Below, one piece after another: positions 4,123-39,500 of a DNA stretch of 64,000 bases. The notes below the pieces were generated by a model. That model did no database searches. It saw only the letters and a list, made by a program, of their open reading frames with translations, and was not told the DNA's origin. The translations under genes and the position numbers were made by a program. The stretch lies in sequence record NC_110934.1. One strand, written 5' to 3'. Numbering within the stretch: position 1 is the stretch's first letter; every line of letters starts with the position of its first letter. The DNA comes from Klebsiella phage KPP2018.

Positions 4123-4217
4123 TTATGTTTTACTAGACTAAGTAAGTATTCTTTATACTCTTTAGACCAATTAGCTTTTTTAAACTTTCCTGGACGCATA
4201 GTCTTAATTCCTAAATT

Positions 4218-4294
4218 TGGTACTCCGGGAGGGATTTAAACCCCCGATCTCTCGGTTATCAGCCGAGTGCTTTAGATCGCTAAGCTACCGAAGC
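4218..4294 (-). tRNA. tRNA-Ile (GAT)
   Basis: Hand fold; loop CTGATAA; CCA encoded. Confidence 0.75.
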
Positions 4295-4295
4295 A

Positions 4296-4795: not shown

Positions 4796-4802
4796 TTGGT
4801 TT

Positions 4803-4873
4803 CCCTCTCATTAATTTATATAAATATTATAACAATAAATAAGAGAGAAAGCAAATGAATTTTTAATAAAGTT
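4803..4873 (-). promoter_or_regulatory. T5-type early promoter (-10 at 4826..4831, -35 at 4849..4854)
   Basis: Motif family. Confidence 0.7.
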
Positions 4874-5057
4874 TAGTCACTTCATAAACTATACTACGAG
4901 ATTCTTTATTACGTTGTATTAAATTAGCATATGCTTCTTCAGCTTCATTTTTAGTATTAAAGTCTATAACGTGAGAGGTATTAGCTCTGTTTGATTGGCT
5001 ATACCAGATAACTACTAGGAGTTTAAACATACTAATCCTTAAATTGGTGCTGGGCAC
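4863..5057 (-). CDS. Hypothetical small protein, 64 aa
   Basis: ORF. Confidence 0.4.
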   Translation of the reverse strand: MPSTNLRISMFKLLVVIWYSQSNRANTSHVIDFNTKNEAEEAYANLIQRNKESRSIVYEVTKLY

Positions 5058-5131
5058 AGGATTCGAACCTGCAACGGGATTACTCCTCCTGATTACAAAT
5101 CAGGTGCATTCAACCATTCTGCCAACCCAGC
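5045..5131 (-). tRNA. Atypical 87-nt type-II-shaped tRNA (15-nt extra arm) with anticodon TGT (Thr) as read
   Basis: Acceptor GCTGGGT/GCCCAGC, A73, CCA encoded; anticodon loop TTTGTAA; extra arm AGGAGTAATCCCGTT. Confidence 0.6.
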
Positions 5132-5296
5132 AGAACCCGTTATTTCAACGGGATTTCTTTTTCAATAACAGGGGACTTGTCAGTCATGACTGTCATTGCC
5201 ATTTGTTGTAGAAATTCAAAGGTGAAGGCTACACGTTCTTCACCAATCTCTACTTCTACACGTTTCTTTTGTTTATCGATCTTGACTTTCAGATTA

Positions 5297-5518
5297 TCAG
5301 CCATCTTCGGGTTCTCGTTGCTGCGCTACTTCTAGCCAGTCTGGTAGAAGAAACTTTGTACGAAATTCTTCGTAAGTTTCTTTGGGATAAAAGCTAAAAC
5401 CTCCTTTCTCGTCATTCAGGATAACAGAGCCGTCAGTTTGTTCGTATGCTCGGTATGTTTCTCCAATAACAATAACTCGTTTATCGGTACTTTTATTACG
5501 AAATTCAAAAACGTGCAT
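5297..5518 (-). CDS. Hypothetical protein, 73 aa
   Basis: ORF. Confidence 0.5.
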   Translation of the reverse strand: MHVFEFRNKSTDKRVIVIGETYRAYEQTDGSVILNDEKGGFSFYPKETYEEFRTKFLLPDWLEVAQQREPEDG

Positions 5519-5534
5519 AACGTTTCCTTAAAGT

Positions 5535-5610
5535 TGGAGCGGCTAGAGGGAATCGAACCCTACTCAGCGAGGCTTGGAAGGCCTGCGACACAACCCGTGT
5601 GCTTAACCGC
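5535..5610 (-). tRNA. tRNA-Gly (TCC)
   Basis: Hand fold; loop CTTCCAA; short D-arm. Confidence 0.7.
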
Positions 5611-5618
5611 TTATTGTT

Positions 5619-5694
5619 TGGCTGGAGAAGGAGGAATCGAACCTACCATTAACGGAGTCAAAGGCCGTTGTGCTAACCGTTACACTACTCTCCA
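5619..5694 (-). tRNA. tRNA-Gln (TTG)
   Basis: U1:A72; loop CTTTGAC. Confidence 0.7.
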
Positions 5695-5700
5695 ATTATT

Positions 5701-5776
5701 TGGCTGGAGTGCCTGGGATCGAACCAGGAACCTTCGGAGTCAGAGGCCGACGATCTGCCAATTGATCTACACTCCA
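5701..5776 (-). tRNA. tRNA-Gln (CTG)
   Basis: U1:A72; loop CTCTGAC. Confidence 0.7.
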
Positions 5777-5784
5777 ATAACCCT

Positions 5785-5985
5785 TTACTCTACAGGAACC
5801 GTGGCGATTGGTTCTGGATCTTCTAAACGTTTGCCTTCATGATCTACTCGAATAACTCCGCATCCTTCGCAAATCACAACAGCACCGTAGCCTTCTTTAA
5901 CTTCAGCTTCTGTAATCAAACCAGAAAGATCACCAGTATCTCTGCCCCACATATCAATGGAGCATTGTTTGCAGAAATCAGCCAT
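5785..5985 (-). CDS. Zinc-ribbon small protein, 66 aa (two CxxC pairs)
   Basis: ORF. Confidence 0.5.
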   Translation of the reverse strand: MADFCKQCSIDMWGRDTGDLSGLITEAEVKEGYGAVVICEGCGVIRVDHEGKRLEDPEPIATVPVE

Positions 5986-6010
5986 ATTTTATTTCCTATT
6001 TAAGTTAATT

Positions 6011-6087
6011 TGGGGTGGCTAGTGGAATTCGAATCCACATAGGCCTGATTCACAATCAGGATCATTAACCAATTATGATATAGCCAC
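6011..6087 (-). tRNA. tRNA-His (GTG)
   Basis: Loop TTGTGAA; CCA encoded. Confidence 0.7.
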
Positions 6088-6300
6088 AATTGAAAACTCG
6101 CAGGGTTAGCGAAACCTTCCTCAATTAGCATGTTCTAGAATACTAATCAAGTTATCTCCTATTGCACGCAGCTCAAGACGAGTACGAATTTTCAATTGTG
6201 GCGGCTCTCCGAAACTCTTCTACTCTAGCCTTAGCAGCTTACTCCCGAACGCATGTCGGGAAAGTCTTACTAAGAGCATCAAATAGCACCGTTACACTTT
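6088..6300 (-). ncRNA. Candidate structured RNA: about 120-nt region closed by a 14-bp stem (ccacaattgaaaa...ttttcaattgtgg) next to tRNA-His
   Basis: Long perfect inverted repeat; no ORF; lies in a transcribed tRNA block. Confidence 0.3.
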
Positions 6301-6321
6301 GAGCCATAGATATATCAAGAA

Positions 6322-6440
6322 GCAGAAGGACTTGAACCTTCACGAGATAGACCATTTATCTCAGCCGCTTTATGAGGTATGTTGCAAGGAGTGGATGTTC
6401 CTTATAAACCTTTTAGGCAGCCCCGTCTACCGATTCCGGC
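6322..6440 (-). other. tRNA-like element with a perfect T-arm (GAAGG TTCAAGT CCTTC) but no acceptor pairing I could find
   Basis: T-arm motif at 6331..6347; the remaining cloverleaf could not be closed by hand. Confidence 0.3.
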
Positions 6441-6471
6441 ATACTTCAAGAATTTTTATAAACCAGCAGAA

Positions 6472-6645
6472 GCCTCATTTAAAGCATCAACAATAGCCTC
6501 ACGTTGGGTCATTCCATACCCGGTGGAATCTAGGTGTGGCAAATAAGCCTTCCATCCCTTATCTGTTTCATGAAGACATGCTTTAAATTTTGTACCATCC
6601 TTCATTGTTACAGTAACTGTTTTGCTCATAAGATTTCCTTATAGT
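6472..6645 (-). CDS. Small protein of about 57 aa (MSKTVTVTMKDGTKFKACLHETDKGW...)
   Basis: Hand-translated; shorter than the ORF-track cutoff. Confidence 0.35.
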
Positions 6646-6649
6646 TAAT

Positions 6650-6739
6650 TGGCAGAAGATAATGGAGTCGAACCATCACCGTATCGCTACAGCGGGCTGG
6701 TTTTCAAGACCAGTTACGTACCACTACGTCCTATCTTCT
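6650..6739 (-). tRNA. tRNA-Ser (TGA), type II
   Basis: Loop CTTGAAA; long extra arm; G73; CCA encoded. Confidence 0.75.
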
Positions 6740-6745
6740 ATTGTT

Positions 6746-6836
6746 TGGCGGAAGAGGAGAGATTTGAACTCTCAAGCCGTTTTACCAGTCAGCCACTTTC
6801 CAAGCGGTTTTCGTCGCCAATTCGATTTGCTCTTCC
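6746..6836 (-). tRNA. tRNA-Ser (GGA), type II
   Basis: Loop TTGGAAA; long extra arm; G73. Confidence 0.65.
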
Positions 6837-6860
6837 AATAATAAGATGATGCCTCTATCA

Positions 6861-6905
6861 CACCAGGCAGTTACGCCTCGCTGGGATTCGAACCCATTAA
6901 AACAG
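6861..6905 (-). other. Orphan T-arm or tRNA 3' fragment (TGGG TTCGAAT CCCA) with no matching 5' half
   Basis: T-loop motif only. Confidence 0.3.
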
Positions 6906-6948
6906 CTCAACCAAGATAGTAGGTTTAATTTACTCTGACCATCAAATT

Positions 6949-7025
6949 TGGTGCGTGACAAGGGATTCGAACCCTCAAAACCCGACTTCTAAGGACGGTA
7001 TGTATGCCAATTCCATCAATCACGC
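6949..7025 (-). tRNA. Atypical type-I tRNA with Leu anticodon TAG, A73 and a 5-nt variable loop
   Basis: Loop CTTAGAA; a T:T mismatch in the anticodon stem; CCA encoded. Confidence 0.55.
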
Positions 7026-7030
7026 ATGTT

Positions 7031-7109
7031 TGGTGGAGAATAACGGAATCGAACCGTTCTGATGTCCTCGGTGCAAGCGAGGTGTCCACTCCATGCAGAC
7101 CCATTCCCC
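7031..7109 (-). tRNA. tRNA-Ala (TGC) with a G3:U70 wobble
   Basis: Loop CTTGCAC; G3:T70 is the Ala identity pair. Confidence 0.75.
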
Positions 7110-7320
7110 AAATTCTTTAGTTTACTAAGGCTATTAGCTCGGCGTAACTACAGCACCTTCGCTTCAAGCGGAAGGAACCGCGTCATCTCGCAAACCCGAT
7201 ACACTATTCAGTTGCCGCTGAATCTAGTGGACTAATCTAGAACTTCTCCCGAATCGTAGGGATCGTGCTTTTTGGCAGCCAGTCCTAGGTCGAGCTAATA
7301 CCTTAGTGAACTATGATGAG
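7110..7320 (-). ncRNA. Candidate small RNA: about 210 nt, no ORF, hairpins, downstream of a T5-type promoter and upstream of the tRNAs
   Basis: Inverted repeats ccttcgc/gcggaagg and ctagtggactaatctag. Confidence 0.3.
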
Positions 7321-7326
7321 GATTTC

Positions 7327-7398
7327 TCCTCATCAATTTATATAAATATTATAACAAGAAATTAAGCATCAAGCAAGTACATTTTTAGCGATTTCTTG
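7327..7398 (-). promoter_or_regulatory. T5-type early promoter firing into the ncRNA/tRNA block
   Basis: Motif family. Confidence 0.7.
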
Positions 7399-7737
7399 TA
7401 GTTCCTTTACATCACGAACGTAAAGGTAATCAGAGCTTCCAGAGTGCATACTTTGCATAACCACACCTTCATCTGGTGCATTATCCTTCAGAGTAATTCC
7501 TAACCAGAACTCGGCAAAACTAGGTGTTATCTCACCTTGACTTGCCTTGAATACATCATATTCTGTAAGTTCTTGACCAGTAGATAATCCCAAATATACA
7601 GAACTAAGATCAATCTCTTTATGAGACTCATAAAACTCCGATAGATCCTTTTCCATATCCCAGCCATGCTGTAGCGCGAACTCCATTGTCACATGACCGA
7701 AATAACCTTGAATCTTGCTTGATAATTGCATTTGCAA
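7369..7737 (-). CDS. Hypothetical protein, 122 aa
   Basis: ORF. Confidence 0.6.
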   Translation of the reverse strand: MQMQLSSKIQGYFGHVTMEFALQHGWDMEKDLSEFYESHKEIDLSSVYLGLSTGQELTEYDVFKASQGEITPSFAEFWLGITLKDNAPDEGVVMQSMHSGSSDYLYVRDVKELQEIAKNVLA

Positions 7738-7756
7738 TTCCTTATTTTGAGTTAAT

Positions 7757-7830
7757 TGGTACTCGGTGATAGAATCGAACTATCGCAACCGCCGTGTAAA
7801 GACGGGGTTCTCCCATTAAACTAACCGAGC
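7757..7830 (-). tRNA. tRNA-Val (TAC)
   Basis: Loop TTTACAC. Confidence 0.7.
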
Positions 7831-7834
7831 AATT

Positions 7835-7913
7835 TGGTAGATCGCCTGGGACTCGAACCCAGAACCTTCCGATTAAAAGTCGGATGCTACTAAACCTATT
7901 GAGCTAGCGATCT
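7835..7913 (-). tRNA. tRNA-Lys (TTT)
   Basis: Loop CTTTTAA. Confidence 0.7.
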
Positions 7914-7916
7914 ATT

Positions 7917-8084
7917 AGTAACCATTGTATACTTCTTTAATAGAGTGAACCTTCAAGTAAGGGTGATTAGTATTAAACTCTGACATTACTTCATCCCAAT
8001 TTTTACCATAATGGGCAAGTAAGGATTTTGATGTATTCTTACCTGAACGTTTGTCGCTTACTACTAATCGAAATACTTTCATTT
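7917..8084 (-). CDS. Small protein of about 55 aa (MKVFRLVVSDKRSGK...)
   Basis: Hand-translated. Confidence 0.35.
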
Positions 8085-8102
8085 CGAAATCCCCTATTAA
8101 AA

Positions 8103-8180
8103 TGGAAGCGGGTGCAGGAATCGAACCTACCTCTTTCTAGCTTATGAGACTAGTGATCTCTACCAGAGATCTAACCCGCA
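8103..8180 (-). tRNA. tRNA-Met/Ile2 (CAT) with a 1:72 mismatch
   Basis: Loop CTCATAA. Confidence 0.65.
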
Positions 8181-8186
8181 ATTGTT

Positions 8187-8262
8187 TGGTCAGTGCGGCA
8201 GGACTCGAACCTGCGACCCGAAGCATCCAAGGCTCCCACGCTACCAACTGCGCTACGCACTG
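8187..8262 (-). tRNA. tRNA-Pro (TGG) with C1:G72
   Basis: Loop CTTGGAT. Confidence 0.75.
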
Positions 8263-8303
8263 TTAATTCTTTTATTGTGGAGGAATATTAATAATTCGTC
8301 CGT

Positions 8304-8471
8304 CTACACAATAAACGGTACTAGGAATTGTACTATATATATGTAGAAATTCTTTATATTACTCTCCCCGCCACAGAAATTTTTAGCAAATTCATACTCT
8401 TTATTAATGGTTGAGTCAAATTTAAAACAACCAGTAAGTAGGAATACAGATAGTAATAAAATTTTCTTCAT
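8304..8471 (-). CDS. Small lipoprotein, 55 aa (lipobox LLTGC)
   Basis: Hand-translated MKKILLLSVFLLTGCFKF...; promoter at 8478..8552. Confidence 0.45.
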   Translation of the reverse strand: MKKILLLSVFLLTGCFKFDSTINKEYEFAKNFCGGESNIKNFYIYIVQFLVPFIV

Positions 8472-8477
8472 TTAGCT

Positions 8478-8552
8478 TTCCTTCTCTTCACTTTATAAAA
8501 TATATTATACAGATAATTAAGCAGAATAGCAAATGAATTTTTAATAAATTTA
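8478..8552 (-). promoter_or_regulatory. T5-type early promoter
   Basis: Motif family. Confidence 0.7.
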
Positions 8553-8559
8553 CTTATTG

Positions 8560-8683
8560 TGTAGGCCACCTGGAGGCTACCAACCCCACGGCTGACAAAG
8601 AAGTTTGCGAGACCTCTCTTAAATGCCAGAATAGATCCGCCGATCTATCGGAACCTACATAATAAGTAAACTTTATAGTGTCA
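8560..8683 (-). ncRNA. Unassigned non-coding stretch with hairpins inside the tRNA block
   Basis: No ORF and no tRNA fold found. Confidence 0.2.
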
Positions 8684-8804
8684 TTCTAGACAGGACTCGA
8701 ACCTGTTATCACTTGTGCGGACTTACGAGAACCATTCTTTCACTCGAATCGAACGAGCTTCTGCCCTCGCCAAGCTGGTTTCCCCGTCAACCACGCTAGA
8801 ATGT
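8684..8804 (-). other. 120-nt tRNA-like element: acceptor-like closing stem ATTCTAG/CTAGAAT enclosing two T-arm hairpins; no CCA
   Basis: Two T-arm motifs (GCTCG TTCGATT CGAGT and ACAGG TTCGAGT CCTGT). Confidence 0.4.
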
Positions 8805-8924
8805 TTAATTGTTTTCAGTGCAAGAGTCCGAGTCTTGGACACGACCGCTTCGCAAGTACATAGGCAGCTTATCATGAATCAGCACTTCCGAATTGCTAGC
8901 TCCGTGTTCTGCACTGAAATTTTA

Positions 8925-9272
8925 TTAGTTTAACCGTAAAGTATTATCTACTTCACCATTAATTGTTCGGCATTCTTCTGGGATTGCCGGGGTGGCCTTG
9001 TATTCCCACCATTCAGAACCGTCATATTCACCACGTTCTAACCAAGTTCCATCAGTAAACCATACGTTACCATAAAGCAATTGTCCACCGAAACCAGAAT
9101 CATATTTAAAGTCTAGATTATTTAGAAAATCTTCAATATCTTTTTCTGTATAACCTACGGGTAATACCCAAACTTCTTTGTCCCCATAATAACCGAATTC
9201 TATCTTAATACACTTAACTTCAGACTTAGTATTCTTTAGGGCAAGTAACAACTCTTCTTTAGCATTAATCAT
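8925..9272 (-). CDS. Hypothetical protein, 115 aa
   Basis: ORF. Confidence 0.6.
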   Translation of the reverse strand: MINAKEELLLALKNTKSEVKCIKIEFGYYGDKEVWVLPVGYTEKDIEDFLNNLDFKYDSGFGGQLLYGNVWFTDGTWLERGEYDGSEWWEYKATPAIPEECRTINGEVDNTLRLN

Positions 9273-9298
9273 AACATATTTCTCGTGCTAGTTTAATT

Positions 9299-9375
9299 TG
9301 GCGCGACCGATGGGATTCGAACCCACATTCTCTCCAGTGACAGGGGAGTACCATTACCAAGCCAGCCCCGGTCGC
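9299..9375 (-). tRNA. tRNA-Asp (GTC); copy 1 carries a C31:U39 mismatch (9336 a), whereas copy 2 has a paired G
   Basis: Loop CTGTCAC; G73; the one SNP found between the copies. Confidence 0.75.
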
Positions 9376-9384
9376 ATAATTCAT

Positions 9385-9570
9385 TTACTCAGCTTTGAGT
9401 TTTTCAATAGCTGCATTAAGTTCCTTAAGAAACTCTTTTCGTACATTAAGACGATTAAGACTTACTAGTATATCATGTTTAAGTTCTTCGATATATTTCT
9501 TCTCAACTTCAATATTGTTGATAGTGCTATCACGATGAACTTCTAGCTGCGCAATTACATTCTTGGACAT
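9385..9570 (-). CDS. Coiled-coil small protein, 61 aa
   Basis: ORF. Confidence 0.45.
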   Translation of the reverse strand: MSKNVIAQLEVHRDSTINNIEVEKKYIEELKHDILVSLNRLNVRKEFLKELNAAIEKLKAE

Positions 9571-9672
9571 GCTTGTTTCCTCAGTTATTAATAAAAATGG
9601 TATCTGTGGCTGAATTCGATATCAGCAATGATAGCTGGTTGGCTACCGGTTTACTTAACTCTACACAGAATT

Positions 9673-9755
9673 TGGCGGGCCGTGTAGGATTCGAACCTAC
9701 GTTGTCTTTCGACATGGATTAACAGTCCACCGCCAAACCGCTTGGCTAACGACCC
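9673..9755 (-). tRNA. tRNA-Asn (GTT) with an unusual 13-nt extra arm
   Basis: Loop CTGTTAA; extra arm GTCGAAAGACAAC. Confidence 0.65.
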
Positions 9756-9907
9756 TAAATTTATATTGCTGACTAGGATTTTCACCTAGACGGAGTTAGC
9801 ACCGTAGCGTGTAGCGGCATACCCCTCCAAACCGTGCCTCATCTTTCAATTACGGAGACAGTGTTCCTACGCGTGCCTGAATTGATTTAACAATTCTTTC
9901 AGCAAAT
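9756..9907 (-). ncRNA. Unassigned structured non-coding stretch between tRNA-Asn and tRNA-Cys
   Basis: Hairpins; no ORF. Confidence 0.2.
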
Positions 9908-9983
9908 TGGACGACCGCATGAGATTTGAACTCACATAAGAAGGATTTGCAATCCTTCTCCTAAGCCATTCAGCCAACGGTCG
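9908..9983 (-). tRNA. tRNA-Cys (GCA), U73
   Basis: Loop TTGCAAA. Confidence 0.75.
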
Positions 9984-10007
9984 ATTTATCTTGTTCTGTC
10001 ATGTTGC

Positions 10008-10075
10008 TCCCCCAGTTCAATTTATGTAATTATTATACAGAACTTTTGGAAACTAAGCAACTACATTTTTTAAGA
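10008..10075 (-). promoter_or_regulatory. T5-type early promoter firing into the tRNA block
   Basis: Motif family. Confidence 0.65.
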
Positions 10076-10340
10076 ATTTGATGCCTTTCTTTCTCTTCTT
10101 ATATTTCCACGTTAATGGATTCTGTCGATTATGAACACTTGAGATCTTTGTCTCATCAAAGTTCTTCAATATCATGTAATCACAAGATAGTTGTTCTAAT
10201 GGAATGTGATCACCGTCAAAAGCGTGTACATAAGGTTGTTGACTAGCACGATAATGATAGACTTTGTTAATTCTACGTTTCAGCGACTTATCCGCGCAGT
10301 AAATAAAGAAGTTTTCAGGATGCATCAGCAGCTCCTTCAA
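10053..10340 (-). CDS. Hypothetical protein, 95 aa
   Basis: ORF. Confidence 0.55.
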   Translation of the reverse strand: MKELLMHPENFFIYCADKSLKRRINKVYHYRASQQPYVHAFDGDHIPLEQLSCDYMILKNFDETKISSVHNRQNPLTWKYKKRKKGIKFLKNVVA

Positions 10341-10417
10341 TTTGGTGCACCCTGTTCGTATCGAACGAACCTCTCAAGCTCTTCAGGCAAGCGCTAATCC
10401 ATCTCAGCTAAAGGTGC
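10341..10417 (-). tRNA. tRNA-Phe (GAA)? The anticodon stem is weak
   Basis: Loop CTGAAGA; two T:T mismatches in the stem. Confidence 0.45.
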
Positions 10418-10424
10418 AAATTTT

Positions 10425-10495
10425 GGCAGGGGTAAAGGTATTCGAAACCTTTTCATGGGTTTTGGAGGCCCATTTGCAACCTATGCGTACCCCAA
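10425..10495 (-). tRNA. tRNA-Trp (CCA), compact 71 nt with a reduced D-arm
   Basis: Loop CUCCAAA, as in E. coli tRNA-Trp. Confidence 0.55.
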
Positions 10496-10504
10496 TTATT
10501 AATT

Positions 10505-10578
10505 GGCACACCCAACGAGGATCGAACTCGTGTTCCCACTGTGAAAGAGTGGTGTCCTAACCGCTAGACGATAGGTGC
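10505..10578 (-). tRNA. tRNA-Glu (TTC)
   Basis: Loop CTTTCAC. Confidence 0.7.
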
Positions 10579-10585
10579 ATTAAAT

Positions 10586-10673
10586 TGGTGGGGAAAGATG
10601 GAGTCGAACCACCCGAGTCGCAATGACAACTGATTTACAGTCAGCTCTGCTACCACTTACAGAATATTTCCCC
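10586..10673 (-). tRNA. tRNA-Tyr (GTA), type II
   Basis: Loop CUGUAAA; A73. Confidence 0.75.
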
Positions 10674-10803
10674 ATATTTAGAAGTATTCAAAAATTCTCA
10701 TTTAAACACTTTTAAATATGTTTCCAAATTAGATAAATATTATATCAAGTTTTATAGTATTGGGCAAGTCAAATTTTAAAGAACTTGCCCAATGCTGTAT
10801 TAG

Positions 10804-11079
10804 TTAGTCGAACTTAGGAGTGACAGTTAAGGAGAACGGAAGTTCAAAAACTTCTTCGCCCTCATCACTAATAGTGATTACACGACCTTTAAGTTCAGAC
10901 ATTGAAATATCAATATCAGCTTTTGCATCTGGAGCCATGCCAGCTTCAATACATTTAGCTTTAATTTCCGGCAGAAGTTCTACATCGTAGAAATAAAGCC
11001 ATTCAATCTCACCTTCCCAGCCTTCCCAGGATTTACAGATTGCACTTTCAATACCAGCAGCTATAACACGATTTTGCAT
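10804..11079 (-). CDS. Acidic hypothetical protein, 91 aa
   Basis: ORF; promoter at 11088..11162. Confidence 0.6.
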   Translation of the reverse strand: MQNRVIAAGIESAICKSWEGWEGEIEWLYFYDVELLPEIKAKCIEAGMAPDAKADIDISMSELKGRVITISDEGEEVFELPFSLTVTPKFD

Positions 11080-11087
11080 TCGTTAAC

Positions 11088-11162
11088 TCCTTCATCAATT
11101 TATATAACTATTATATCAGAAATTTAAAGCAAAAGGCAAGTACATTTTTAAAAATTCTGTTT
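11088..11162 (-). promoter_or_regulatory. T5-type early promoter
   Basis: Motif family. Confidence 0.7.
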
Positions 11163-11169
11163 GGAGGAG

Positions 11170-11376
11170 CTAAACTCCAGATTCTTCAGCCAAGTCTAGA
11201 CTAATAAGAGATATAGCCATAATTGCTGCTCCGTGCTCTTTTTCTCCAGTCTCTTTAGCTAGAGTTATAATATCAAGAAATTGCTTATGAAAATCTGCAA
11301 CCTCTTGAGTTATACCTGCCTCAGCAATCATGCCTTTAAGCATGAAGCGTTGTGCGGTAATTTCAGGATTAGCCAT
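11170..11376 (-). CDS. Hypothetical protein, 68 aa
   Basis: ORF. Confidence 0.5.
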   Translation of the reverse strand: MANPEITAQRFMLKGMIAEAGITQEVADFHKQFLDIITLAKETGEKEHGAAIMAISLISLDLAEESGV

Positions 11377-11551
11377 GTTGTTTCTCCAGTTTCATCTTTA
11401 ATAGTCTACAAATAAAATCAATGTCTTCATCCGTGCCTAGATCTCTATCTTCAAGGGTTGCCTTGAAGTTTTTAGTCAATTCCATGAGAATAACTTCTCT
11501 AGAACGACGTGTTGGCGGAGGTGGATGTCTATACATCTTATTTCCTTAATT

Positions 11552-11628
11552 TGGTAGGGGTGGTGGGATTCGAACCCACAAAACCTGAATTTTAAGTCCA
11601 GTACCTATGCCAATTCGATTACACCCCC
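11552..11628 (-). tRNA. Atypical type-I tRNA with Leu anticodon TAA, A73 and a 5-nt variable loop
   Basis: Loop CTTAAAA. Confidence 0.55.
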
Positions 11629-11635
11629 ATGTAGT

Positions 11636-11824
11636 TTAGTCAATTACTTTTGAGGCTTCAAGGTAGTCGATATAGTGTACGTTTTCTACCGTAATCATAT
11701 AATCCGCCACTTTATCCATAGCTTGGGCTTCAGAGGTAGCTCTGGCTAACCTATATCCTTTTCTATACTCATCCGGGTATTCTCTATCTTGAATAAACAC
11801 AACATAAACTATATATAGATCCAT
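11636..11824 (-). CDS. Hypothetical protein, 62 aa
   Basis: ORF. Confidence 0.45.
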   Translation of the reverse strand: MDLYIVYVVFIQDREYPDEYRKGYRLARATSEAQAMDKVADYMITVENVHYIDYLEASKVID

Positions 11825-11843
11825 TTGTGACCTCTATTTAATT

Positions 11844-11921
11844 TGGTGGCTCCCCGAGGATTCGAACCTACGTACCTTCCGGTTATGAGCCGGGTGCTCA
11901 TACCATATGAGCTTGAGAACC
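11844..11921 (-). tRNA. tRNA-Met/Ile2 (CAT); the third CAT tRNA
   Basis: Loop CTCATAA. Confidence 0.6.
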
Positions 11922-11927
11922 AAAATC

Positions 11928-12016
11928 TGGCGGAAGAAGTGGGAATCGAACCCACAAGGCTATATTTCAAACCGACAGATTAGCAATCTGCTGCAATACC
12001 ATTATGCTATTCTTCC
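11928..12016 (-). tRNA. tRNA-Ser (GCT), type II
   Basis: Loop TTGCTAA; G73. Confidence 0.75.
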
Positions 12017-12037
12017 GAATTTATAAGATATATTATA

Positions 12038-12607
12038 TTAGAAATTTAGCTTCATAGCAAGAAAATTTTTCAAGTTTTCGGTAGACATCTCATCCACATC
12101 TACAGGAGAAACAAATCCATTTAATTGTCTAGCAAACTTTTCACCAGCAGGATCATTGTCCCCAACAGCTACCAATTTAAAAGGTAGTAATTTCAGTTGC
12201 TTTAATAACGCTTTTCCTGGAGAAGAACCCAACATTGCCAGGGCTGGATAACCCGCATTATGTAATGCAACTGCCTTAAATACAGATTCAGCAATCAATA
12301 CTACTTTTTCATCCCCATTGAGAGTTTCTAGTCCCCATACACACTGTGTAGTAGAATAAGTAAAGTATTTAGCTTCAAAGGGGCACTTACCATGACCTTT
12401 TGGAGCAGAAGGATTATAAGTTTGATAGCCCCTCAACATTCCAGAGAAATCATACAACGGGACTGTTAGCCACCCTTCCGGACTTAACCAGCAATGATAT
12501 TTATCTGTATCAAATCCTCTAGATAAGAGGTGCTGTGTTAGCTCATCAACATTCATATTTGGTTCCTCTCTCAAATTTATAGATATATTATACAGAGAAT
12601 TTAGCAT
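12038..12607 (-). CDS. TOPRIM-domain protein (small primase-like), 189 aa
   Basis: VVLIAES...VAVGDNDPAG resembles the Toprim E and DxD motifs. Confidence 0.55.
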   Translation of the reverse strand: MLNSLYNISINLREEPNMNVDELTQHLLSRGFDTDKYHCWLSPEGWLTVPLYDFSGMLRGYQTYNPSAPKGHGKCPFEAKYFTYSTTQCVWGLETLNGDEKVVLIAESVFKAVALHNAGYPALAMLGSSPGKALLKQLKLLPFKLVAVGDNDPAGEKFARQLNGFVSPVDVDEMSTENLKNFLAMKLNF

Positions 12608-12625
12608 TCAAGCAATCAAATTTTT
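12548..12625 (-). promoter_or_regulatory. T5-type early promoter
   Basis: Motif family. Confidence 0.7.
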
Positions 12626-12731
12626 TAACTTTTTAGAGGAAAATCATAGGGCACTTAAGGGTAGCAGATAAGTGGTGAGGACCAAAATTTGTGACCCCAC
12701 TAAAAATCCAGGGGCAATTTTTAAAGACCCC

Positions 12732-12760
12732 TTGACATTTTCGCTGGGGTAGTGTAAAGT
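12732..12760 (+). promoter_or_regulatory. Sigma70 promoter (TTGACA, 17-nt spacer, TG-TAAAGT) for the plus-strand low-complexity operon; copy at 42196..42224
   Basis: Read directly. Confidence 0.6.
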
Positions 12761-12822
12761 ATATGTTATGGATGAGTGATCAAAGAGACACACATTTTCT
12801 ATATACTAGGAGGTGTCAAAAA

Positions 12823-13593
12823 ATGACAGAAGAAGTAGCTAAGAGTCCTGAGACCGTCGCTAGCGTTGCAGCAGAACTGCACCGTCACGAGGAATCAGAT
12901 AAGAAAAAGTGGGAGAAGGTCAGAGCCTACGAAGAGAAACATCGTGAACACGATGAAGATGATGAAGAAGATGACGATGATGAGTATTGTCATAAATATG
13001 GAAAACGTAAAATGCAAGAACCAGTAAACGTATTCACTAGTGGCTTCCCTGGCCTAATGGGTGGTTACCCAGCAAACGCAGGTGCTTTCGGTGGTGAAGG
13101 TATGGGACTATTCGGAGCTATCCTAATCGGTGCTCTATTAACAGGCGGATTCGGTGGTTTTGGTGGATTTGGTGGACGTGGTGTAGTTGGTGAAGGTACC
13201 GCAGTTGATGCAGTACTTCAGAACCAAGATACCGCTAGTATTCTAGCAGCTATTAACACTACTCGTACAGAAGCTAACCAGGGTACTGGAGCTGTTTTAA
13301 GCGCAGTTAACAATGGTTTTAGCCAGACATCCCAAAACCAGAGCCGTGATACTCAGTCTGTACTAACTACGATCTATGGTACGGGTGCTAATCTGTCTAA
13401 TCAAATCTGCCAGGAAACTCGCAACGTTATTCAGGGTCAGTTCGATCTTTCTCGCCAGATTGATCAATCTTTCGCAGCTAACCAGATAGCTCGTGCACAA
13501 GATAAGTTTGATTCTGCACAGATCGCTTTCCAGCAGACTTTACAAACTAATAACCAGTTTGCCGCTGTTCAGGCTCAGATGTGTGCTAACCAG
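12823..13593 (+). pseudogene. 5' 257 codons of the Gly-rich/acidic protein gene (intact copy 42287..43279), cut off by the repeat junction
   Basis: Identical to copy 2 up to 13593, then reads into unrelated sequence. Confidence 0.85.
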
Positions 13594-36500: not shown

Positions 36501-39500
36501 AGAATAACGGAATCGAACCGTTCTGATGTCCTCGGTGCAAGCGAGGTGTCCACTCCATGCAGACCCATTCCCCAAATTCTTTAGTTTACTAAGGCTATTA
36601 GCTCGGCGTAACTACAGCACCTTCGCTTCAAGCGGAAGGAACCGCGTCATCTCGCAAACCCGATACACTATTCAGTTGCCGCTGAATCTAGTGGACTAAT
36701 CTAGAACTTCTCCCGAATCGTAGGGATCGTGCTTTTTGGCAGCCAGTCCTAGGTCGAGCTAATACCTTAGTGAACTATGATGAGGATTTCTCCTCATCAA
36801 TTTATATAAATATTATAACAAGAAATTAAGCATCAAGCAAGTACATTTTTAGCGATTTCTTGTAGTTCCTTTACATCACGAACGTAAAGGTAATCAGAGC
36901 TTCCAGAGTGCATACTTTGCATAACCACACCTTCATCTGGTGCATTATCCTTCAGAGTAATTCCTAACCAGAACTCGGCAAAACTAGGTGTTATCTCACC
37001 TTGACTTGCCTTGAATACATCATATTCTGTAAGTTCTTGACCAGTAGATAATCCCAAATATACAGAACTAAGATCAATCTCTTTATGAGACTCATAAAAC
37101 TCCGATAGATCCTTTTCCATATCCCAGCCATGCTGTAGCGCGAACTCCATTGTCACATGACCGAAATAACCTTGAATCTTGCTTGATAATTGCATTTGCA
37201 ATTCCTTATTTTGAGTTAATTGGTACTCGGTGATAGAATCGAACTATCGCAACCGCCGTGTAAAGACGGGGTTCTCCCATTAAACTAACCGAGCAATTTG
37301 GTAGATCGCCTGGGACTCGAACCCAGAACCTTCCGATTAAAAGTCGGATGCTACTAAACCTATTGAGCTAGCGATCTATTAGTAACCATTGTATACTTCT
37401 TTAATAGAGTGAACCTTCAAGTAAGGGTGATTAGTATTAAACTCTGACATTACTTCATCCCAATTTTTACCATAATGGGCAAGTAAGGATTTTGATGTAT
37501 TCTTACCTGAACGTTTGTCGCTTACTACTAATCGAAATACTTTCATTTCGAAATCCCCTATTAAAATGGAAGCGGGTGCAGGAATCGAACCTACCTCTTT
37601 CTAGCTTATGAGACTAGTGATCTCTACCAGAGATCTAACCCGCAATTGTTTGGTCAGTGCGGCAGGACTCGAACCTGCGACCCGAAGCATCCAAGGCTCC
37701 CACGCTACCAACTGCGCTACGCACTGTTAATTCTTTTATTGTGGAGGAATATTAATAATTCGTCCGTCTACACAATAAACGGTACTAGGAATTGTACTAT
37801 ATATATGTAGAAATTCTTTATATTACTCTCCCCGCCACAGAAATTTTTAGCAAATTCATACTCTTTATTAATGGTTGAGTCAAATTTAAAACAACCAGTA
37901 AGTAGGAATACAGATAGTAATAAAATTTTCTTCATTTAGCTTTCCTTCTCTTCACTTTATAAAATATATTATACAGATAATTAAGCAGAATAGCAAATGA
38001 ATTTTTAATAAATTTACTTATTGTGTAGGCCACCTGGAGGCTACCAACCCCACGGCTGACAAAGAAGTTTGCGAGACCTCTCTTAAATGCCAGAATAGAT
38101 CCGCCGATCTATCGGAACCTACATAATAAGTAAACTTTATAGTGTCATTCTAGACAGGACTCGAACCTGTTATCACTTGTGCGGACTTACGAGAACCATT
38201 CTTTCACTCGAATCGAACGAGCTTCTGCCCTCGCCAAGCTGGTTTCCCCGTCAACCACGCTAGAATGTTTAATTGTTTTCAGTGCAAGAGTCCGAGTCTT
38301 GGACACGACCGCTTCGCAAGTACATAGGCAGCTTATCATGAATCAGCACTTCCGAATTGCTAGCTCCGTGTTCTGCACTGAAATTTTATTAGTTTAACCG
38401 TAAAGTATTATCTACTTCACCATTAATTGTTCGGCATTCTTCTGGGATTGCCGGGGTGGCCTTGTATTCCCACCATTCAGAACCGTCATATTCACCACGT
38501 TCTAACCAAGTTCCATCAGTAAACCATACGTTACCATAAAGCAATTGTCCACCGAAACCAGAATCATATTTAAAGTCTAGATTATTTAGAAAATCTTCAA
38601 TATCTTTTTCTGTATAACCTACGGGTAATACCCAAACTTCTTTGTCCCCATAATAACCGAATTCTATCTTAATACACTTAACTTCAGACTTAGTATTCTT
38701 TAGGGCAAGTAACAACTCTTCTTTAGCATTAATCATAACATATTTCTCGTGCTAGTTTAATTTGGCGCGACCGATGGGATTCGAACCCACATTCTCTCCC
38801 GTGACAGGGGAGTACCATTACCAAGCCAGCCCCGGTCGCATAATTCATTTACTCAGCTTTGAGTTTTTCAATAGCTGCATTAAGTTCCTTAAGAAACTCT
38901 TTTCGTACATTAAGACGATTAAGACTTACTAGTATATCATGTTTAAGTTCTTCGATATATTTCTTCTCAACTTCAATATTGTTGATAGTGCTATCACGAT
39001 GAACTTCTAGCTGCGCAATTACATTCTTGGACATGCTTGTTTCCTCAGTTATTAATAAAAATGGTATCTGTGGCTGAATTCGATATCAGCAATGATAGCT
39101 GGTTGGCTACCGGTTTACTTAACTCTACACAGAATTTGGCGGGCCGTGTAGGATTCGAACCTACGTTGTCTTTCGACATGGATTAACAGTCCACCGCCAA
39201 ACCGCTTGGCTAACGACCCTAAATTTATATTGCTGACTAGGATTTTCACCTAGACGGAGTTAGCACCGTAGCGTGTAGCGGCATACCCCTCCAAACCGTG
39301 CCTCATCTTTCAATTACGGAGACAGTGTTCCTACGCGTGCCTGAATTGATTTAACAATTCTTTCAGCAAATTGGACGACCGCATGAGATTTGAACTCACA
39401 TAAGAAGGATTTGCAATCCTTCTCCTAAGCCATTCAGCCAACGGTCGATTTATCTTGTTCTGTCATGTTGCTCCCCCAGTTCAATTTATGTAATTATTAT

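What the first reader, a model, noticed from the sequence alone, without database searches (positions are those of the whole stretch)
8684..8930. 120-nt tRNA-like element with two T-arms inside a 250-nt ORF-free stretch
A 7-bp acceptor-like stem (ATTCTAG/CTAGAAT) closes a 106-nt interior. The interior contains two separate canonical T-arm hairpins (GCTCG-TTCGATT-CGAGT and ACAGG-TTCGAGT-CCTGT), and no CCA is encoded. It is followed by 125 nt of further non-coding sequence before the next gene. It is too short for a group I intron. It could be an intron- or insertion-containing tRNA, a fused pair of tRNA halves, or a tRNA-derived regulatory RNA. Similar orphan T-arm fragments lie at 6861..6905 and 6322..6440.
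Basis: seen in the sequence. Interest (0 to 1): 0.55.

Follow-up and report, generated by a model that had tools for sequence, protein, structure and literature searches.

The report
T5 RNA2 tRNA-like stable RNA
This is the phage T5 'RNA2' gene: a tRNA-shaped small RNA whose anticodon loop is replaced by a conserved module carrying a second T-arm. The gene is already annotated in T5, its function is still unknown, and relatives turn up in other phages and in a giant tRNA array.

Summary
On the minus strand, 8679-8803 encodes a 125-nt RNA that is 96-97% identical to the annotated T5 misc_RNA 'rna2/RNA2'. An identical twin lies at 38143-38267, because the window repeats 13.6 kb.

Covariation across about 22 diverged homologs supports a 7-bp acceptor stem, a 5-bp D-arm, a stem at the anticodon-stem position, a 5-nt variable loop, a canonical outer T-arm and a second canonical T-arm. 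The final alignment is 89% paired against 64% in shuffles (0/500 reach it).

The second T-arm is not a variable arm. It sits in a 55-nt insert that replaces the anticodon loop. That insert holds the invariant positions (UAA, GGG/UCC, UGG, T-loop), while the frame stems drift by compensatory change.

The element is not a decoding tRNA:
- There is no anticodon loop and no U33.
- Position 8 is C, not U.
- There is no conserved identity set.
- The 3' end is G-ACA, while 21-22 of 23 real tRNAs in the window encode CCA.

It always lies in same-strand tRNA clusters, spaced like a tRNA gene.

Best reading: a natural tRNA-scaffolded, RNase P-processed stable RNA whose payload is a second elbow-like module. 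The payload's target is unknown. The gene itself is already known, but the wider family, its architecture and its function are not described in anything I could read.

The parts
8679..8803 (-). Whole RNA2 gene (125 nt, CAUUCUAG...CUAGAAUGACA), the ortholog of T5 misc_RNA 'rna2'
   Evidence: Alignment to T5 st0 record positions 32962-33086. Covariance-model hit of 150.1 bits.
8796..8802 (-). Acceptor-stem 5' strand, AUUCUAG
   Evidence: All 7 of 7 pairs show changes on both sides across homologs; 93-95% paired.
8683..8689 (-). Acceptor-stem 3' strand, CUAGAAU
   Evidence: Same as above. Variants are UACGGGG/UCCCGUA, AGUUAAU/AUUAACU and GGGCGGG/CUCGUUC.
8679..8682 (-). Discriminator G plus ACA tail (no CCA)
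   Evidence: Direct reading of the sequence. 21-22 of 23 true tRNAs in the window encode CCA. Only some Klebsiella-phage homologs and UTK0010 encode CCA.
8776..8793 (-). D-arm: 5-bp stem UGGUU/AACCA with loop GACGGGGA (conserved GG)
   Evidence: 5 of 5 pairs changed on both sides in the model-fitted alignments; 4 of 5 in the plain MAFFT alignment.
8771..8774 (-). 5' strand (CUUG) of the stem at the anticodon-stem position
   Evidence: Covaries with 8712-8715: CUUG/CAAG, CCAU/GUGG, UCUG/CAGA, CCUG/CAGG, CUCC/GGAG, UCACU/AGUGA, CUCCU/AGGAG.
8712..8715 (-). 3' strand (CAAG) of the stem at the anticodon-stem position
   Evidence: As above.
8716..8770 (-). 55-nt insert that replaces the anticodon loop (the 'payload')
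   Evidence: The tRNA-trained and RNA2-trained models both place it at the anticodon loop. Mean pairwise identity is 0.67 for the insert against 0.55 for the frame in 14 lineages.
8742..8758 (-). Inner T-arm, GCUCG-UUCGAUU-CGAGU
   Evidence: 94-98% paired; 4 of 5 pairs changed on both sides; G53'-C61' and the loop UUCGAUU are nearly invariant.
8763..8766 (-). Insert helix P_a, 5' strand GGGC (pairs with 8719-8722, GUCC)
   Evidence: GGG/UCC is complementary in nearly all sequences. Only the 4th pair varies (CG/UA/mismatch), so covariation is weak.
8719..8722 (-). Insert helix P_a, 3' strand GUCC
   Evidence: As above.
8760..8761 (-). Insert helix P_b core, 5' strand GA (pairs with 8727-8728, UC)
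   Evidence: The G-C pair holds in 21/21. The neighbouring pair holds in 21/21 with AU12 UA4 GC3 CG2. The alternative register is not supported.
8727..8728 (-). Insert helix P_b core, 3' strand UC
   Evidence: As above.
8723..8725 (-). Invariant UAA bulge between P_b and P_a
   Evidence: 100% identical in 14 lineage representatives.
8732..8734 (-). Conserved UGG in the single-stranded segment 3' of the inner T-arm; candidate D-loop-like partner of the inner T-loop
   Evidence: G78 is invariant and G79 is present in 13/14. The docking role is an inference.
8707..8711 (-). 5-nt variable loop, UGAUA
   Evidence: Position between the anticodon-position stem and the outer T-arm.
8690..8706 (-). Outer (canonical) T-arm, ACAGG-UUCGAGU-CCUGU
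   Evidence: 96-98% paired; 3 of 5 pairs changed on both sides; the two G-C pairs next to the loop are invariant.
38143..38267 (-). Identical second copy of RNA2, the one lying in native genomic context
   Evidence: The window's repeat has an offset of 29,464. Covariance-model hit of 150.1 bits. Junction tests.

Best explanation
The element is the ortholog of bacteriophage T5 'RNA2'. It is a small non-coding RNA transcribed as part of the polycistronic tRNA-cluster transcript on the minus strand.

Its outer part is a bona fide tRNA frame: a 7-bp acceptor stem, a D-arm with the GG loop, a stem at the anticodon-stem position, a 5-nt variable loop, and a T-arm with a canonical T-loop. In place of the 7-nt anticodon loop it carries a conserved module of about 55 nt. 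That module is a bulged helix (GGG/UCC, an invariant UAA bulge, a G-C/N-N' core) capped by a second canonical T-arm, followed by a conserved purine-rich strand ending in UGG.

Proposed mechanism:
1. The tRNA frame acts as a natural 'tRNA scaffold'. RNase P and the 3'-end tRNA maturation enzymes excise the RNA, and the frame makes it stable (inferred from anatomy and context).
2. The RNA does not decode. It has no anticodon loop and no conserved identity elements, and it usually has no CCA (shown from sequence).
3. The conserved insert is the functional payload. Most likely it folds into a second tRNA-elbow-like knob, with the inner T-loop docked on the UGG strand, and this knob is bound by a conserved host factor that recognises T-arms or elbows (inferred; the target is unknown).
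For: Identity:
- It is 96-97% identical over its full length to T5 rna2, in the same position between the T5p065 homolog and RNAIV/promoter P13a.
- RefSeq T5 labels the locus 'rna2: RNA2'.

Structure:
- On a plain MAFFT alignment the five frame helices are 94.1% paired, 19/27 pairs change on both sides, 0/500 shuffles reach this, and slid controls give 33-47%.
- On the most diverse model-fitted alignment, 89.3% are paired against 63.5% in shuffles, the covariation score is 0.676 against 0.181, and slid controls give 35-44%.
- The inner T-arm is 94-98% paired, with 4/5 pairs compensated.

tRNA-likeness of the frame:
- The RNA2 model matches ordinary tRNAs end to end by skipping the insert.

Not a decoding tRNA:
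- ARAGORN and Rfam give nothing, even at E<=10.
- The tail is G-ACA, while 21-22/23 real tRNAs here encode CCA.
- Acceptor stems and discriminators differ freely between lineages.

The payload is the constrained part:
- UAA is 100% identical, the inner T-loop 86%, CNCG 82%, and GGGN and NUCC 80% each. Frame stems are 39-48% identical.
- The blastn match between Acinetobacter phages and T5 covers mainly the insert.

Processing context:
- It is always in same-strand tRNA clusters, 2-6 nt after a tRNA's CCA or about 10 nt before the next tRNA.
- It has no promoter or terminator of its own.

Scaffold principle:
- The engineered equivalent is processed and stabilised in E. coli (PMC3753655).

Host-factor inference:
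- No protein-coding neighbour co-occurs across lineages, while hosts range from Enterobacterales to Acinetobacter.
Against: - No expression, end-mapping or stability data could be examined here. 'Stable RNA' rests on the T5 annotators' label.
- The two short insert helices are conserved but barely covary. P_a has one varying pair, and P_b has a 2-bp core.
- The T-loop/UGG docking is pure inference.
- Alignments A5, A6 and A9 were fitted to the model and so lean towards it. Only one search is free of that bias.
- The single-sequence fold is not exceptional (z = -1.29).
- The T5 region containing RNA2 is deleted in the viable T5Mos strain (deletion 30661-38625), and RNA2 lies outside the fragment that rescues PARIS sensitivity (PMC11464382). 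It is therefore dispensable in the laboratory, and no phenotype is known.
- Some homologs do encode CCA (two of the three distinct Klebsiella-phage versions, and UTK0010), and one (L108) has G3.U70. Charging in some lineages is therefore not excluded.
Confidence: 0.6

Rival explanations
1. It is an intron-containing pre-tRNA. The 55-nt insert is removed, and the exons are joined to give a functional decoding tRNA.
For: The insert sits at the anticodon position of an otherwise good tRNA frame. A second gene of the cluster, RNA1, has the same plan. One distant member, L108, has a textbook frame with U8, a 5-bp anticodon stem and an AGGUC variable loop.
Against: - There is no U33 or anticodon-loop remnant flanking the insert in the window or in most lineages.
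- The insert is more conserved than the exons, the reverse of what is expected for an intron.
- It is far too short for a group I intron, there is no Rfam intron hit, and there is no bulge-helix-bulge motif (a 2-nt and a 1-nt bulge separated by 2 bp).
- E. coli has no known pathway that splices such an insert (established knowledge).
- Acceptor identity is not conserved, and CCA is usually absent, whereas true tRNAs here encode it.
- No insert-free allele was found.
Confidence: 0.06
2. It is an aminoacylatable tRNA-like RNA that acts on the ribosome or as an amino-acid donor. This would be tmRNA-like, or a non-decoding charged tRNA.
For: It has a full acceptor/T-arm minihelix. CCA is encoded in two of the three distinct Klebsiella-phage versions and in UTK0010. 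L108 has G3.U70. In W16-type Acinetobacter phages an RF-1-domain ORF starts 16 nt downstream.
Against: - The acceptor sequence and discriminator vary freely (G, U, A), so no synthetase identity set is conserved.
- Most members lack CCA.
- Position 8 is C.
- There is no ORF or tag, and ARAGORN calls no tmRNA.
- The RF-1 neighbour is confined to one lineage.
Confidence: 0.08
3. It is only a cis-acting processing or stability element. As tRNA-like 'punctuation', it directs RNase P cleavage to release or stabilise the upstream T5p065 mRNA and the neighbouring RNAs, and the excised RNA has no function of its own.
For: It lies between an ORF and further RNA genes in a polycistronic unit with no promoter or terminator of its own. 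tRNA-like punctuation is an established principle (mitochondrial transcripts, mascRNA; from my own knowledge).
Against: - Punctuation needs only the acceptor/T-arm frame. It does not explain invariant nucleotides in the insert across Demerecviridae, Acinetobacter phages and a tRNA array.
- In many genomes the element is flanked directly by tRNAs that already provide RNase P sites.
Confidence: 0.1
4. It is a non-functional relic: a tRNA gene scrambled by recombination or homing-endonuclease activity, with a piece of another tRNA inserted.
For: The T5 tRNA region is rich in homing endonucleases, and SegB-type enzymes recognise the T-arm motif GGTTCRANTCC (PMC2330249). A T-arm-containing relic does seem to exist at 6837-6948.
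Against: Compensatory changes maintain all helices, including the inner T-arm, over a very wide divergence, and the single-stranded insert positions are invariant. A relic would decay.
Confidence: 0.03
5. It is protein-coding: the 'hypothetical protein' called over it in some GenBank records.
For: Mechanical ORFs of 50 and 72 aa overlap it. Some records annotate a CDS there.
Against: The open frame and strand change between homologs, and two homologs have no frame open across it. There is a 1-nt indel in L031 and 5-6-nt indels in Pectobacterium and Yersinia phages. The substitution pattern is pairwise-compensatory, not codon-like.
Confidence: 0.01

Closest known systems
Bacteriophage T5 rna2 / RNA2 (misc_RNA in AY692264 and NC_005859)
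   Same: The same gene. It is 96-97% identical over 125 nt and has the same neighbours (T5p065 upstream; RNAIV and promoter P13a downstream).
   Different: Nothing of substance. The window's copy differs by a few substitutions, one of which changes a U-G acceptor pair to U-A. The annotation gives no structure or function.
T5 RNA1 (window 6317-6448)
   Same: It is in the same cluster and has the same plan: a tRNA frame with a structured insert of about 45-50 nt at the anticodon loop. Compensatory changes are visible.
   Different: Its frame has a long variable arm (type II). Its insert is unrelated in sequence and carries no T-arm.
Phage T4 RNA C and RNA D (species 1 and 2 RNAs)
   Same: They are small stable RNAs co-transcribed with a phage tRNA cluster. 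They are partly tRNA-like (rnaC has a T-arm and an acceptor-like stem, and its gene also ends in ACA). Their function is still unknown (PMC3014915, PMC2330249).
   Different: There is no detectable homology. rnaC scores 17.5 bits against the RNA2 model, within the range of ordinary tRNAs. It has no second T-arm module, and rnaC has a 5' extension rather than an anticodon-position insert.
Engineered 'tRNA scaffold' chimeras (Ponchon and Dardel approach)
   Same: The architecture is identical. The acceptor, D and T arms are kept, and the anticodon stem-loop is replaced by a structured RNA. The chimera is processed and protected by the E. coli tRNA machinery (PMC3753655).
   Different: Those are artificial. 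Here the arrangement is natural and the payload is itself tRNA-derived in appearance.
Intron-containing tRNAs (bacterial group I introns in anticodon loops; archaeal/eukaryal BHB introns)
   Same: There is extra sequence at the anticodon loop of a tRNA frame.
   Different: The insert is 55 nt, with no group I core and no BHB. It has no anticodon-loop remnants, and it is more conserved than the frame.
Bacterial Y RNA-like YrlA and the tmRNA tRNA-like domain
   Same: They are non-decoding RNAs that reuse T-arm, D-loop and elbow mimicry.
   Different: Neither gives an Rfam match. In YrlA the termini form the Ro-binding stem and the tRNA-like part is distal, so the topology is permuted (from my own knowledge). 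tmRNA has an ORF and G3.U70 and lacks a D-stem.

Membership tests
T5 RNA2 (annotated misc_RNA) | Full-length sequence identity to T5 rna2 | tested here: met
   Pairwise alignment is 96% identical over the region, with all 125 nt aligned without gaps. blastn gives 96.6%.
T5 RNA2 (annotated misc_RNA) | Syntenic position in the tRNA cluster, between the T5p065 homolog and RNAIV/P13a, on the same strand as the tRNAs | tested here: met
Canonical tRNA (Rfam RF00005 / ARAGORN) | Acceptor stem, D-arm and T-arm with a T-loop, and a 4-5-nt or long variable region | tested here: met
   Covariation-supported helices. The RNA2 model aligns end to end with true tRNAs.
Canonical tRNA (Rfam RF00005 / ARAGORN) | 7-nt anticodon loop with U33 on a 5-bp stem | tested here: not met
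   A 55-nt insert follows a 4(+2)-bp stem, and there is no U at the expected position.
Canonical tRNA (Rfam RF00005 / ARAGORN) | Detection by the tRNA covariance model or ARAGORN | tested here: not met
   There is no hit at gathering score or at E<=10.
Canonical tRNA (Rfam RF00005 / ARAGORN) | 3' CCA (encoded, as in the other tRNAs of this genome) and U8 | tested here: not met
   The tail is G-ACA, while CCA is encoded in 21-22/23 tRNAs. Position 8 is C in T5-type and Klebsiella-type sequences. Post-transcriptional CCA addition cannot be tested here.
Canonical tRNA (Rfam RF00005 / ARAGORN) | Aminoacylation | not testable with these tools
   Only indirect evidence is available: no conserved acceptor or discriminator identity.
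tRNA with group I intron | Group I catalytic core (P3-P9, more than about 200 nt) in the anticodon loop | tested here: not met
   The insert is 55 nt, and no Intron_gpI hit appears at E<=10.
tRNA with BHB intron | Two 3-nt bulges separated by a 4-bp helix at the exon-intron junctions | tested here: not met
   The junction has a 2-nt 5' bulge and a 1-nt 3' bulge separated by 2 bp.
tmRNA | Tag ORF, pseudoknots, G3.U70, and detection by ARAGORN or Rfam | tested here: not met
   The window copy has U3-A70.
YrlA / Y RNA | Match to the Rfam Y RNA-like models, with a Ro-binding terminal stem | tested here: not met
   No match at E<=10. The termini form an acceptor-like stem instead.
T4 rnaC/rnaD | Sequence and structure homology | tested here: not met
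   The R1 model scores rnaC at 17.5 bits, which is no better than tRNAs, and rnaD gives no hit.
tRNA-scaffolded RNA (architecture class) | Acceptor, D and T arms retained, with the anticodon stem-loop replaced by a folded insert closed by a helix | tested here: met
   The definition is from PMC3753655.
tRNA-scaffolded RNA (architecture class) | Processed by RNase P and 3' maturation, and accumulates as a stable RNA | not testable with these tools
   Only context supports this: tRNA-like spacing and A/T-rich leaders, as for the true tRNAs.

The most novel reading that the evidence does not exclude
RNA2 would define a widespread, undescribed family of natural tRNA-scaffolded RNAs that travel with large tRNA gene sets (Demerecviridae, about-167-kb Acinetobacter phages, other viral contigs, and a 47-tRNA array on a 1.46-Mb contig). 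Its conserved payload would be a free-standing second tRNA 'elbow'. This elbow would act as a decoy or ligand for a conserved tRNA-elbow- or T-arm-recognising factor. One possibility is that it blunts or diverts a tRNA-targeting immune nuclease. Another is that it modulates a tRNA maturation or quality-control enzyme, so that the accompanying tRNA arsenal works.
Probability: 0.2. Interest if true: 0.8.

Novelty: already known. Interest (0 to 1): 0.45.

Why it matters
Phage tRNA clusters are now understood as counter-measures to tRNA-cleaving immunity (PARIS, Retron-Eco7, OLD; PMC11464382). The non-tRNA RNAs that sit in the same clusters have nevertheless stayed functionally blank for decades, including T4 RNA C/D and T5 RNA1, RNA2, RNAI, RNAIII and RNAIV.

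This analysis does not discover a new gene. It does four useful things for an old orphan:
- It gives a covariation-backed architecture: a tRNA scaffold plus a second T-arm payload.
- It shows that the payload, not the frame, is the constrained part.
- It shows that the family reaches beyond T5-like phages.
- It shows that the element is missing from Rfam and from most genome annotations, and is sometimes mis-called as a protein.

That makes a concrete experiment possible: delete the gene or mutate the invariant insert positions, then screen against defence systems and tRNA-binding proteins.

Tried and rejected
- Rfam, at gathering score and at E<=10, and ARAGORN give no family and no tRNA or tmRNA call at the locus.
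- The single-sequence MFE fold got the middle of the molecule wrong. Its 7-bp helix CGAGGGC/GUUCUCG is contradicted by uncompensated G/U variation at its second position among T5-type sequences. Its GCUUG/UAAGU helix is replaced by the covarying CUUG/CAAG. The fold z-score of -1.29 would not have flagged the element.
- The model's P_b register A (AGAA/UUCU) cannot be distinguished from shuffles. Register B was adopted instead.
- The long-variable-arm tRNA reading is rejected, because the variable loop is 5 nt.
- A search of IMG/VR for an insert-free version of the frame found nothing. This was an exact-pattern search, so its sensitivity is limited.
- Homology to T4 rnaC/rnaD was not found.
- No conserved protein partner is encoded next to RNA2 across lineages. 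The RF-1-domain ORF beside the W16-type copies occurs in one lineage only.
- Flanking small ORFs in the window give no Pfam hits and only 'unknown function' PHROGs.
- Of the 46 bacterial genome-contig hits to the core pattern, 45 had no RNA2-model hit at E<=1e-6. They are chance matches next to ordinary T-arms.
- Literature searches for T5 RNA2 or stable RNAs in the held library returned nothing specific. The Glukhov 2018 paper on T5 deletion mutants is not held.
Full report
WHAT IS THERE.

The tRNA genes of this window all lie on the minus strand (43 ARAGORN calls; 44 Rfam tRNA hits). Read on that strand, the finding is:

5'-C AUUCUAG CG UGGUU-GACGGGGA-AACCA G CUUG GC GA GGGC AGAA GCUCG-UUCGAUU-CGAGU GAAAGAAUGGUU CUCG UAA GUCC GC A CAAG UGAUA ACAGG-UUCGAGU-CCUGU CUAGAAU G ACA-3' (8803 to 8679).

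ARAGORN calls nothing here, and Rfam gives no match on this strand even at E<=10.

IDENTITY.

The window comes from a T5-like phage (Demerecviridae). The locus matches more than 470 phage records at up to 98.7% identity. The T5 st0 record AY692264 annotates six misc_RNA genes in the tRNA cluster: RNAIII, RNAI, RNA1, RNA2H, RNAIV and rna2. A pairwise alignment puts the finding exactly on 'rna2' (record 32962-33086, 125 nt). It also puts the GC-rich block just downstream (8558-8660) on RNAIV. RefSeq T5 also labels the locus 'rna2: RNA2', whereas AY587007 and most other records leave it blank, and a few call a hypothetical protein.

It is a tRNA-like RNA with a long variable arm, and the Rfam tRNA model aligns it at 25.2 bits with a 45-nt insertion in the anticodon loop. 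The window-versus-T5 comparison shows compensatory changes in its acceptor stem, anticodon stem and insert hairpin.

STRUCTURE.

I collected homologs from several sources:
- Tequintavirus and Epseptimavirus phages.
- Pectobacterium phages (Hongcheonvirus, Myunavirus).
- Yersinia phage phiR2-01.
- Klebsiella Sugarlandvirus phages.
- Acinetobacter phages of about 167 kb.
- IMG/VR and metagenome contigs.

On a plain MAFFT alignment of 24 sequences, the acceptor stem, D-arm, anticodon-position stem, GGGC/GUCC helix and outer T-arm are 94.1% paired. Nineteen of 27 pairs change on both sides. No shuffle out of 500 reaches the observed values, and sliding the partners by 1-3 columns drops pairing to 33-47%. 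This test is free of model-fitting bias.

MAFFT mis-registers the inner T-arm by one column between sequence types, so I built a covariance model (R1) and realigned. With 25 distinct sequences, all seven helices give 94.6% paired, and the inner T-arm is 98.4% paired with 4 of 5 pairs compensated. With the most divergent set of 22 distinct rows, pairing is 89.3% against 63.5% in shuffles, the covariation score is 0.676 against 0.181, and slid controls give 35-44%. These alignments lean towards the model by construction.

Examples of the covariation:
- Acceptor stem: AUUCUAG/CUAGAAU, UACGGGG/UCCCGUA, AGUUAAU/AUUAACU, GGGCGGG/CUCGUUC.
- Anticodon-position stem: CUUG/CAAG, CCAU/GUGG, UCUG/CAGA, CUCC/GGAG, UCACU/AGUGA, CUCCU/AGGAG.
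- Inner T-stem: GCUCG/CGAGU, UACGG/CCGUA, GAUGG/CCAUU, UCCCG/CGGGU.

The stem after the D-arm is followed on its 3' side by a 5-nt variable loop and then the outer T-arm. The second T-arm therefore occupies the anticodon position, not the variable arm.

Inside the insert, GGG/UCC is almost invariant and barely covaries. Next to it, a G-C pair (21/21) and its neighbour (21/21 paired; AU12, UA4, GC3, CG2) define a short helix in a register two positions from the one I first modelled. The first register cannot be distinguished from shuffles. An invariant UAA bulge separates the two helices.

The single-sequence MFE fold got the middle wrong, and its z-score is unremarkable.

WHAT IS CONSTRAINED.

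Across 14 lineage representatives, the frame stems are only 39-48% identical and are kept by compensation. The insert carries the invariant positions:
- UAA, 100% identical.
- Inner T-loop UUCGAUU, 86%.
- CNCG, 82%.
- GGGN and NUCC, 80% each.
- Invariant G78 and A97.

Overall identity is 0.67 for the insert against 0.55 for the frame. The blastn similarity between T5 and the Acinetobacter phages covers essentially the insert plus the outer T-arm. This is the opposite of what an intron would show.

IS IT A tRNA?

The frame is tRNA-like enough that the RNA2 model aligns ordinary tRNAs end to end (12-39 bits) by skipping the insert. However, several features argue against a decoding tRNA:
- There is no 7-nt loop and no U33.
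- Position 8 is C.
- The acceptor sequences and discriminators (G, U, A) are not conserved between lineages.
- The 3' stem strand is followed by G-ACA, whereas 21 of 23 true tRNAs of the window (22 after a one-base register correction) encode CCA.

CCA does appear in two of the three distinct Klebsiella-phage versions and in UTK0010. Entry into the CCA pathway, or charging in some lineages, is therefore not excluded. An IMG/VR pattern search found no insert-free allele of the frame.

CONTEXT.

RNA2 has no promoter or terminator of its own. The only good promoter-like site is T5 P13a, downstream of RNAIV. In the relatives it sits where a tRNA gene would:
- 2-3 nt after the CCA of tRNA-Leu in Klebsiella phages.
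- 6 nt after tRNA-Lys(CUU) in UTK0009 and phiR2-01.
- About 10 nt before tRNA-Gly in ende-type phages.
- 4 nt after tRNA-Ser in L045.
- 4 nt downstream of tRNA-Thr in L049.
- Abutting a tRNA(CUA) in L079.
- 6 nt after tRNA-Ala in L133 and L173.
- 5 nt after tRNA-Gly, inside an array of 47 tRNA genes in 8.3 kb on a 1.46-Mb metagenome contig (L107).

That array meets the published definition of a tRNA array unit (PMC4758250). The contig is too long for a known phage, but I could not identify the organism.

No protein-coding neighbour is shared between lineages. The flanking small ORFs of the window give no functional clue.

According to PMC11464382, the viable strain T5Mos lacks 30661-38625, which includes RNA2. 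The fragment that rescues PARIS sensitivity (31885-32870) stops just short of it. RNA2 is therefore dispensable in the laboratory and is not the PARIS suppressor.

MECHANISM (shown versus inferred).

Shown:
- A conserved, covarying tRNA frame.
- An insert at the anticodon position carrying a second canonical T-arm and invariant single-stranded nucleotides.
- No decoding features.
- Placement like a tRNA gene within tRNA operons.

Inferred:
- RNase P and the 3' maturation enzymes excise the RNA.
- The frame protects the RNA, exactly as in the engineered 'tRNA scaffold', where the anticodon stem-loop is replaced by a cargo RNA (PMC3753655).
- The cargo is the functional part. I propose that the inner T-loop docks on the conserved UGG strand, much as a T-loop docks on the D-loop GG, giving a second elbow-like knob at the end of a bulged helix of about 15-19 bp. 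This knob would be bound by a conserved host factor that recognises T-arms or elbows.

I cannot say what that factor is. The host range (Enterobacterales, Acinetobacter, an unidentified bacterium) and the lack of a co-travelling protein gene point to something universal, or to a phage protein encoded elsewhere.

COMPARISON WITH WHAT IS KNOWN.

The gene itself is known, as T5 rna2. The nearest classical parallels are T4 RNA C and D, which are co-transcribed with the T4 tRNAs and have unknown roles (PMC3014915, PMC2330249). T4 rnaC has a T-arm and an acceptor-like stem, but against the RNA2 model it scores like an ordinary tRNA (17.5 bits) and has no comparable insert. They are the same kind of RNA, not the same family. 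The element is not a group I or BHB intron-containing tRNA, not a tmRNA and not a YrlA-type Y RNA (see the membership table).

THE DUPLICATION.

Window 1-13593 is repeated at 29465-43057 with a single mismatch. One-kilobase probes show that the join at 13593|13594 exists in no phage record, and the probe splits exactly there. The joins at 29464|29465 and 43057|43058 are contiguous in more than 200 genomes. The finding's copy therefore belongs to an extra segment, and the copy at 38143-38267 is the one in native context. A real 29.5-kb tandem duplication would probably overfill a T5-type capsid. I suspect an assembly artefact but did not prove it.

VERDICT.

The entity is already annotated in T5, so it is 'already known'. 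What is not in the accessible literature or in Rfam is the covariation-supported architecture, the finding that the insert is the constrained payload, and the spread of the family beyond T5-like phages. Its function remains open.

Noticed in passing
window 1-13593 and 29465-43057; junction 13593|13594: There is a 13.6-kb direct repeat (offset 29,464; one mismatch at 9336) that contains the whole tRNA cluster. The join at 13593|13594 is found in no phage record, while the other two junctions are native. It is either a head-to-tail duplication of about 29.5 kb or, more likely, an assembly artefact.
   Followed up: partly
window 6317-6448 (-): This is T5 RNA1, a tRNA-like RNA with a long variable arm and a 45-nt insert in the anticodon loop (Rfam tRNA 25.2 bits, below gathering score). 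It shows compensatory changes against T5. It has the same 'tRNA scaffold plus payload' plan as RNA2, with an unrelated payload.
   Followed up: partly
window 8806-8918 (-): A conserved block of about 113 nt lies between the T5p065 stop codon and RNA2. It is closed by a 9-bp terminal stem (CAGUGCAG.../...CUUGCACUG) and is not annotated in any T5 record. In ende/Pectobacterium-type and JLBYU43-type phages, different blocks of 65-80 nt replace it, and the ende/Pectobacterium-type block shares a CGGACUCU motif with it. The fold z-score is only -1.26, and there is too little variation for a covariation test.
   Followed up: partly
window 8558-8660 (-) and 7110-7290 (-): These are the orthologs of T5 RNAIV (fold z = -2.33, terminal stem UGUAGG/CCUACA) and RNA2H. 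They are further annotated stable RNAs of unknown function and have no Rfam family.
   Followed up: no
It is conserved in about 247 phages, and its 3' part is homologous to something annotated tRNA-Ser in one Klebsiella phage. It has no significant fold (z = -0.38). It occupies the place of the HNH endonuclease gene of T5 and may be a tRNA relic or a homing-site remnant.
   Followed up: partly
window 6750-6836 (-): This is a Ser-type tRNA-like gene with an encoded CCA (T5 tRNA-Ser2, marked as a pseudogene in AY587007). ARAGORN does not call it, and Rfam sees it only as a weak tRNA-Sec-like match (19.7 bits).
   Followed up: no
L032 528-758 and L046 2800-3027 (Acinetobacter phage W16 type): A 76-aa ORF with an RF-1 domain (Pfam PF00472, E = 3e-10) starts 16 nt after the RNA2 homolog. 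By eye, the GGQ motif appears to be replaced (the region reads ...VGKHSNW...). The ORF is present only in this lineage.
   Followed up: partly
L079 7053-7127 and L046 6751-6823: Amber-suppressor-type tRNA(CUA) genes (ARAGORN calls them 'tRNA-Pyl') occur in the 167-kb Acinetobacter-phage-like contigs. In L079 the gene directly abuts the RNA2 homolog.
   Followed up: no
L107 1-8283 (contig Ga0308158_10000004, 1.46 Mb): This is an array of 47 tRNA genes in 8.3 kb, with an RNA2-family member at 6022-6141. The organism and any mobile-element context were not determined.
   Followed up: partly
L016 around 5875 (IMG/VR UViG 2706796320): In this T5-like genome the RNA2 3' end reads ...CUAGAAUGA-CCAAACAAUUGCGGGUGGG, so it runs straight into the tRNA-Pro CCA / tRNA-Met junction. 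This suggests a deletion of RNAIV, P13a, a small ORF and most of tRNA-Pro by recombination at a shared TGAC.
   Followed up: no
window 45601-45672 (-) and 11847-11921 (-): Two tRNAs are found by Rfam but not by ARAGORN. The one at 45601-45672 is followed by AGA instead of CCA.
   Followed up: no
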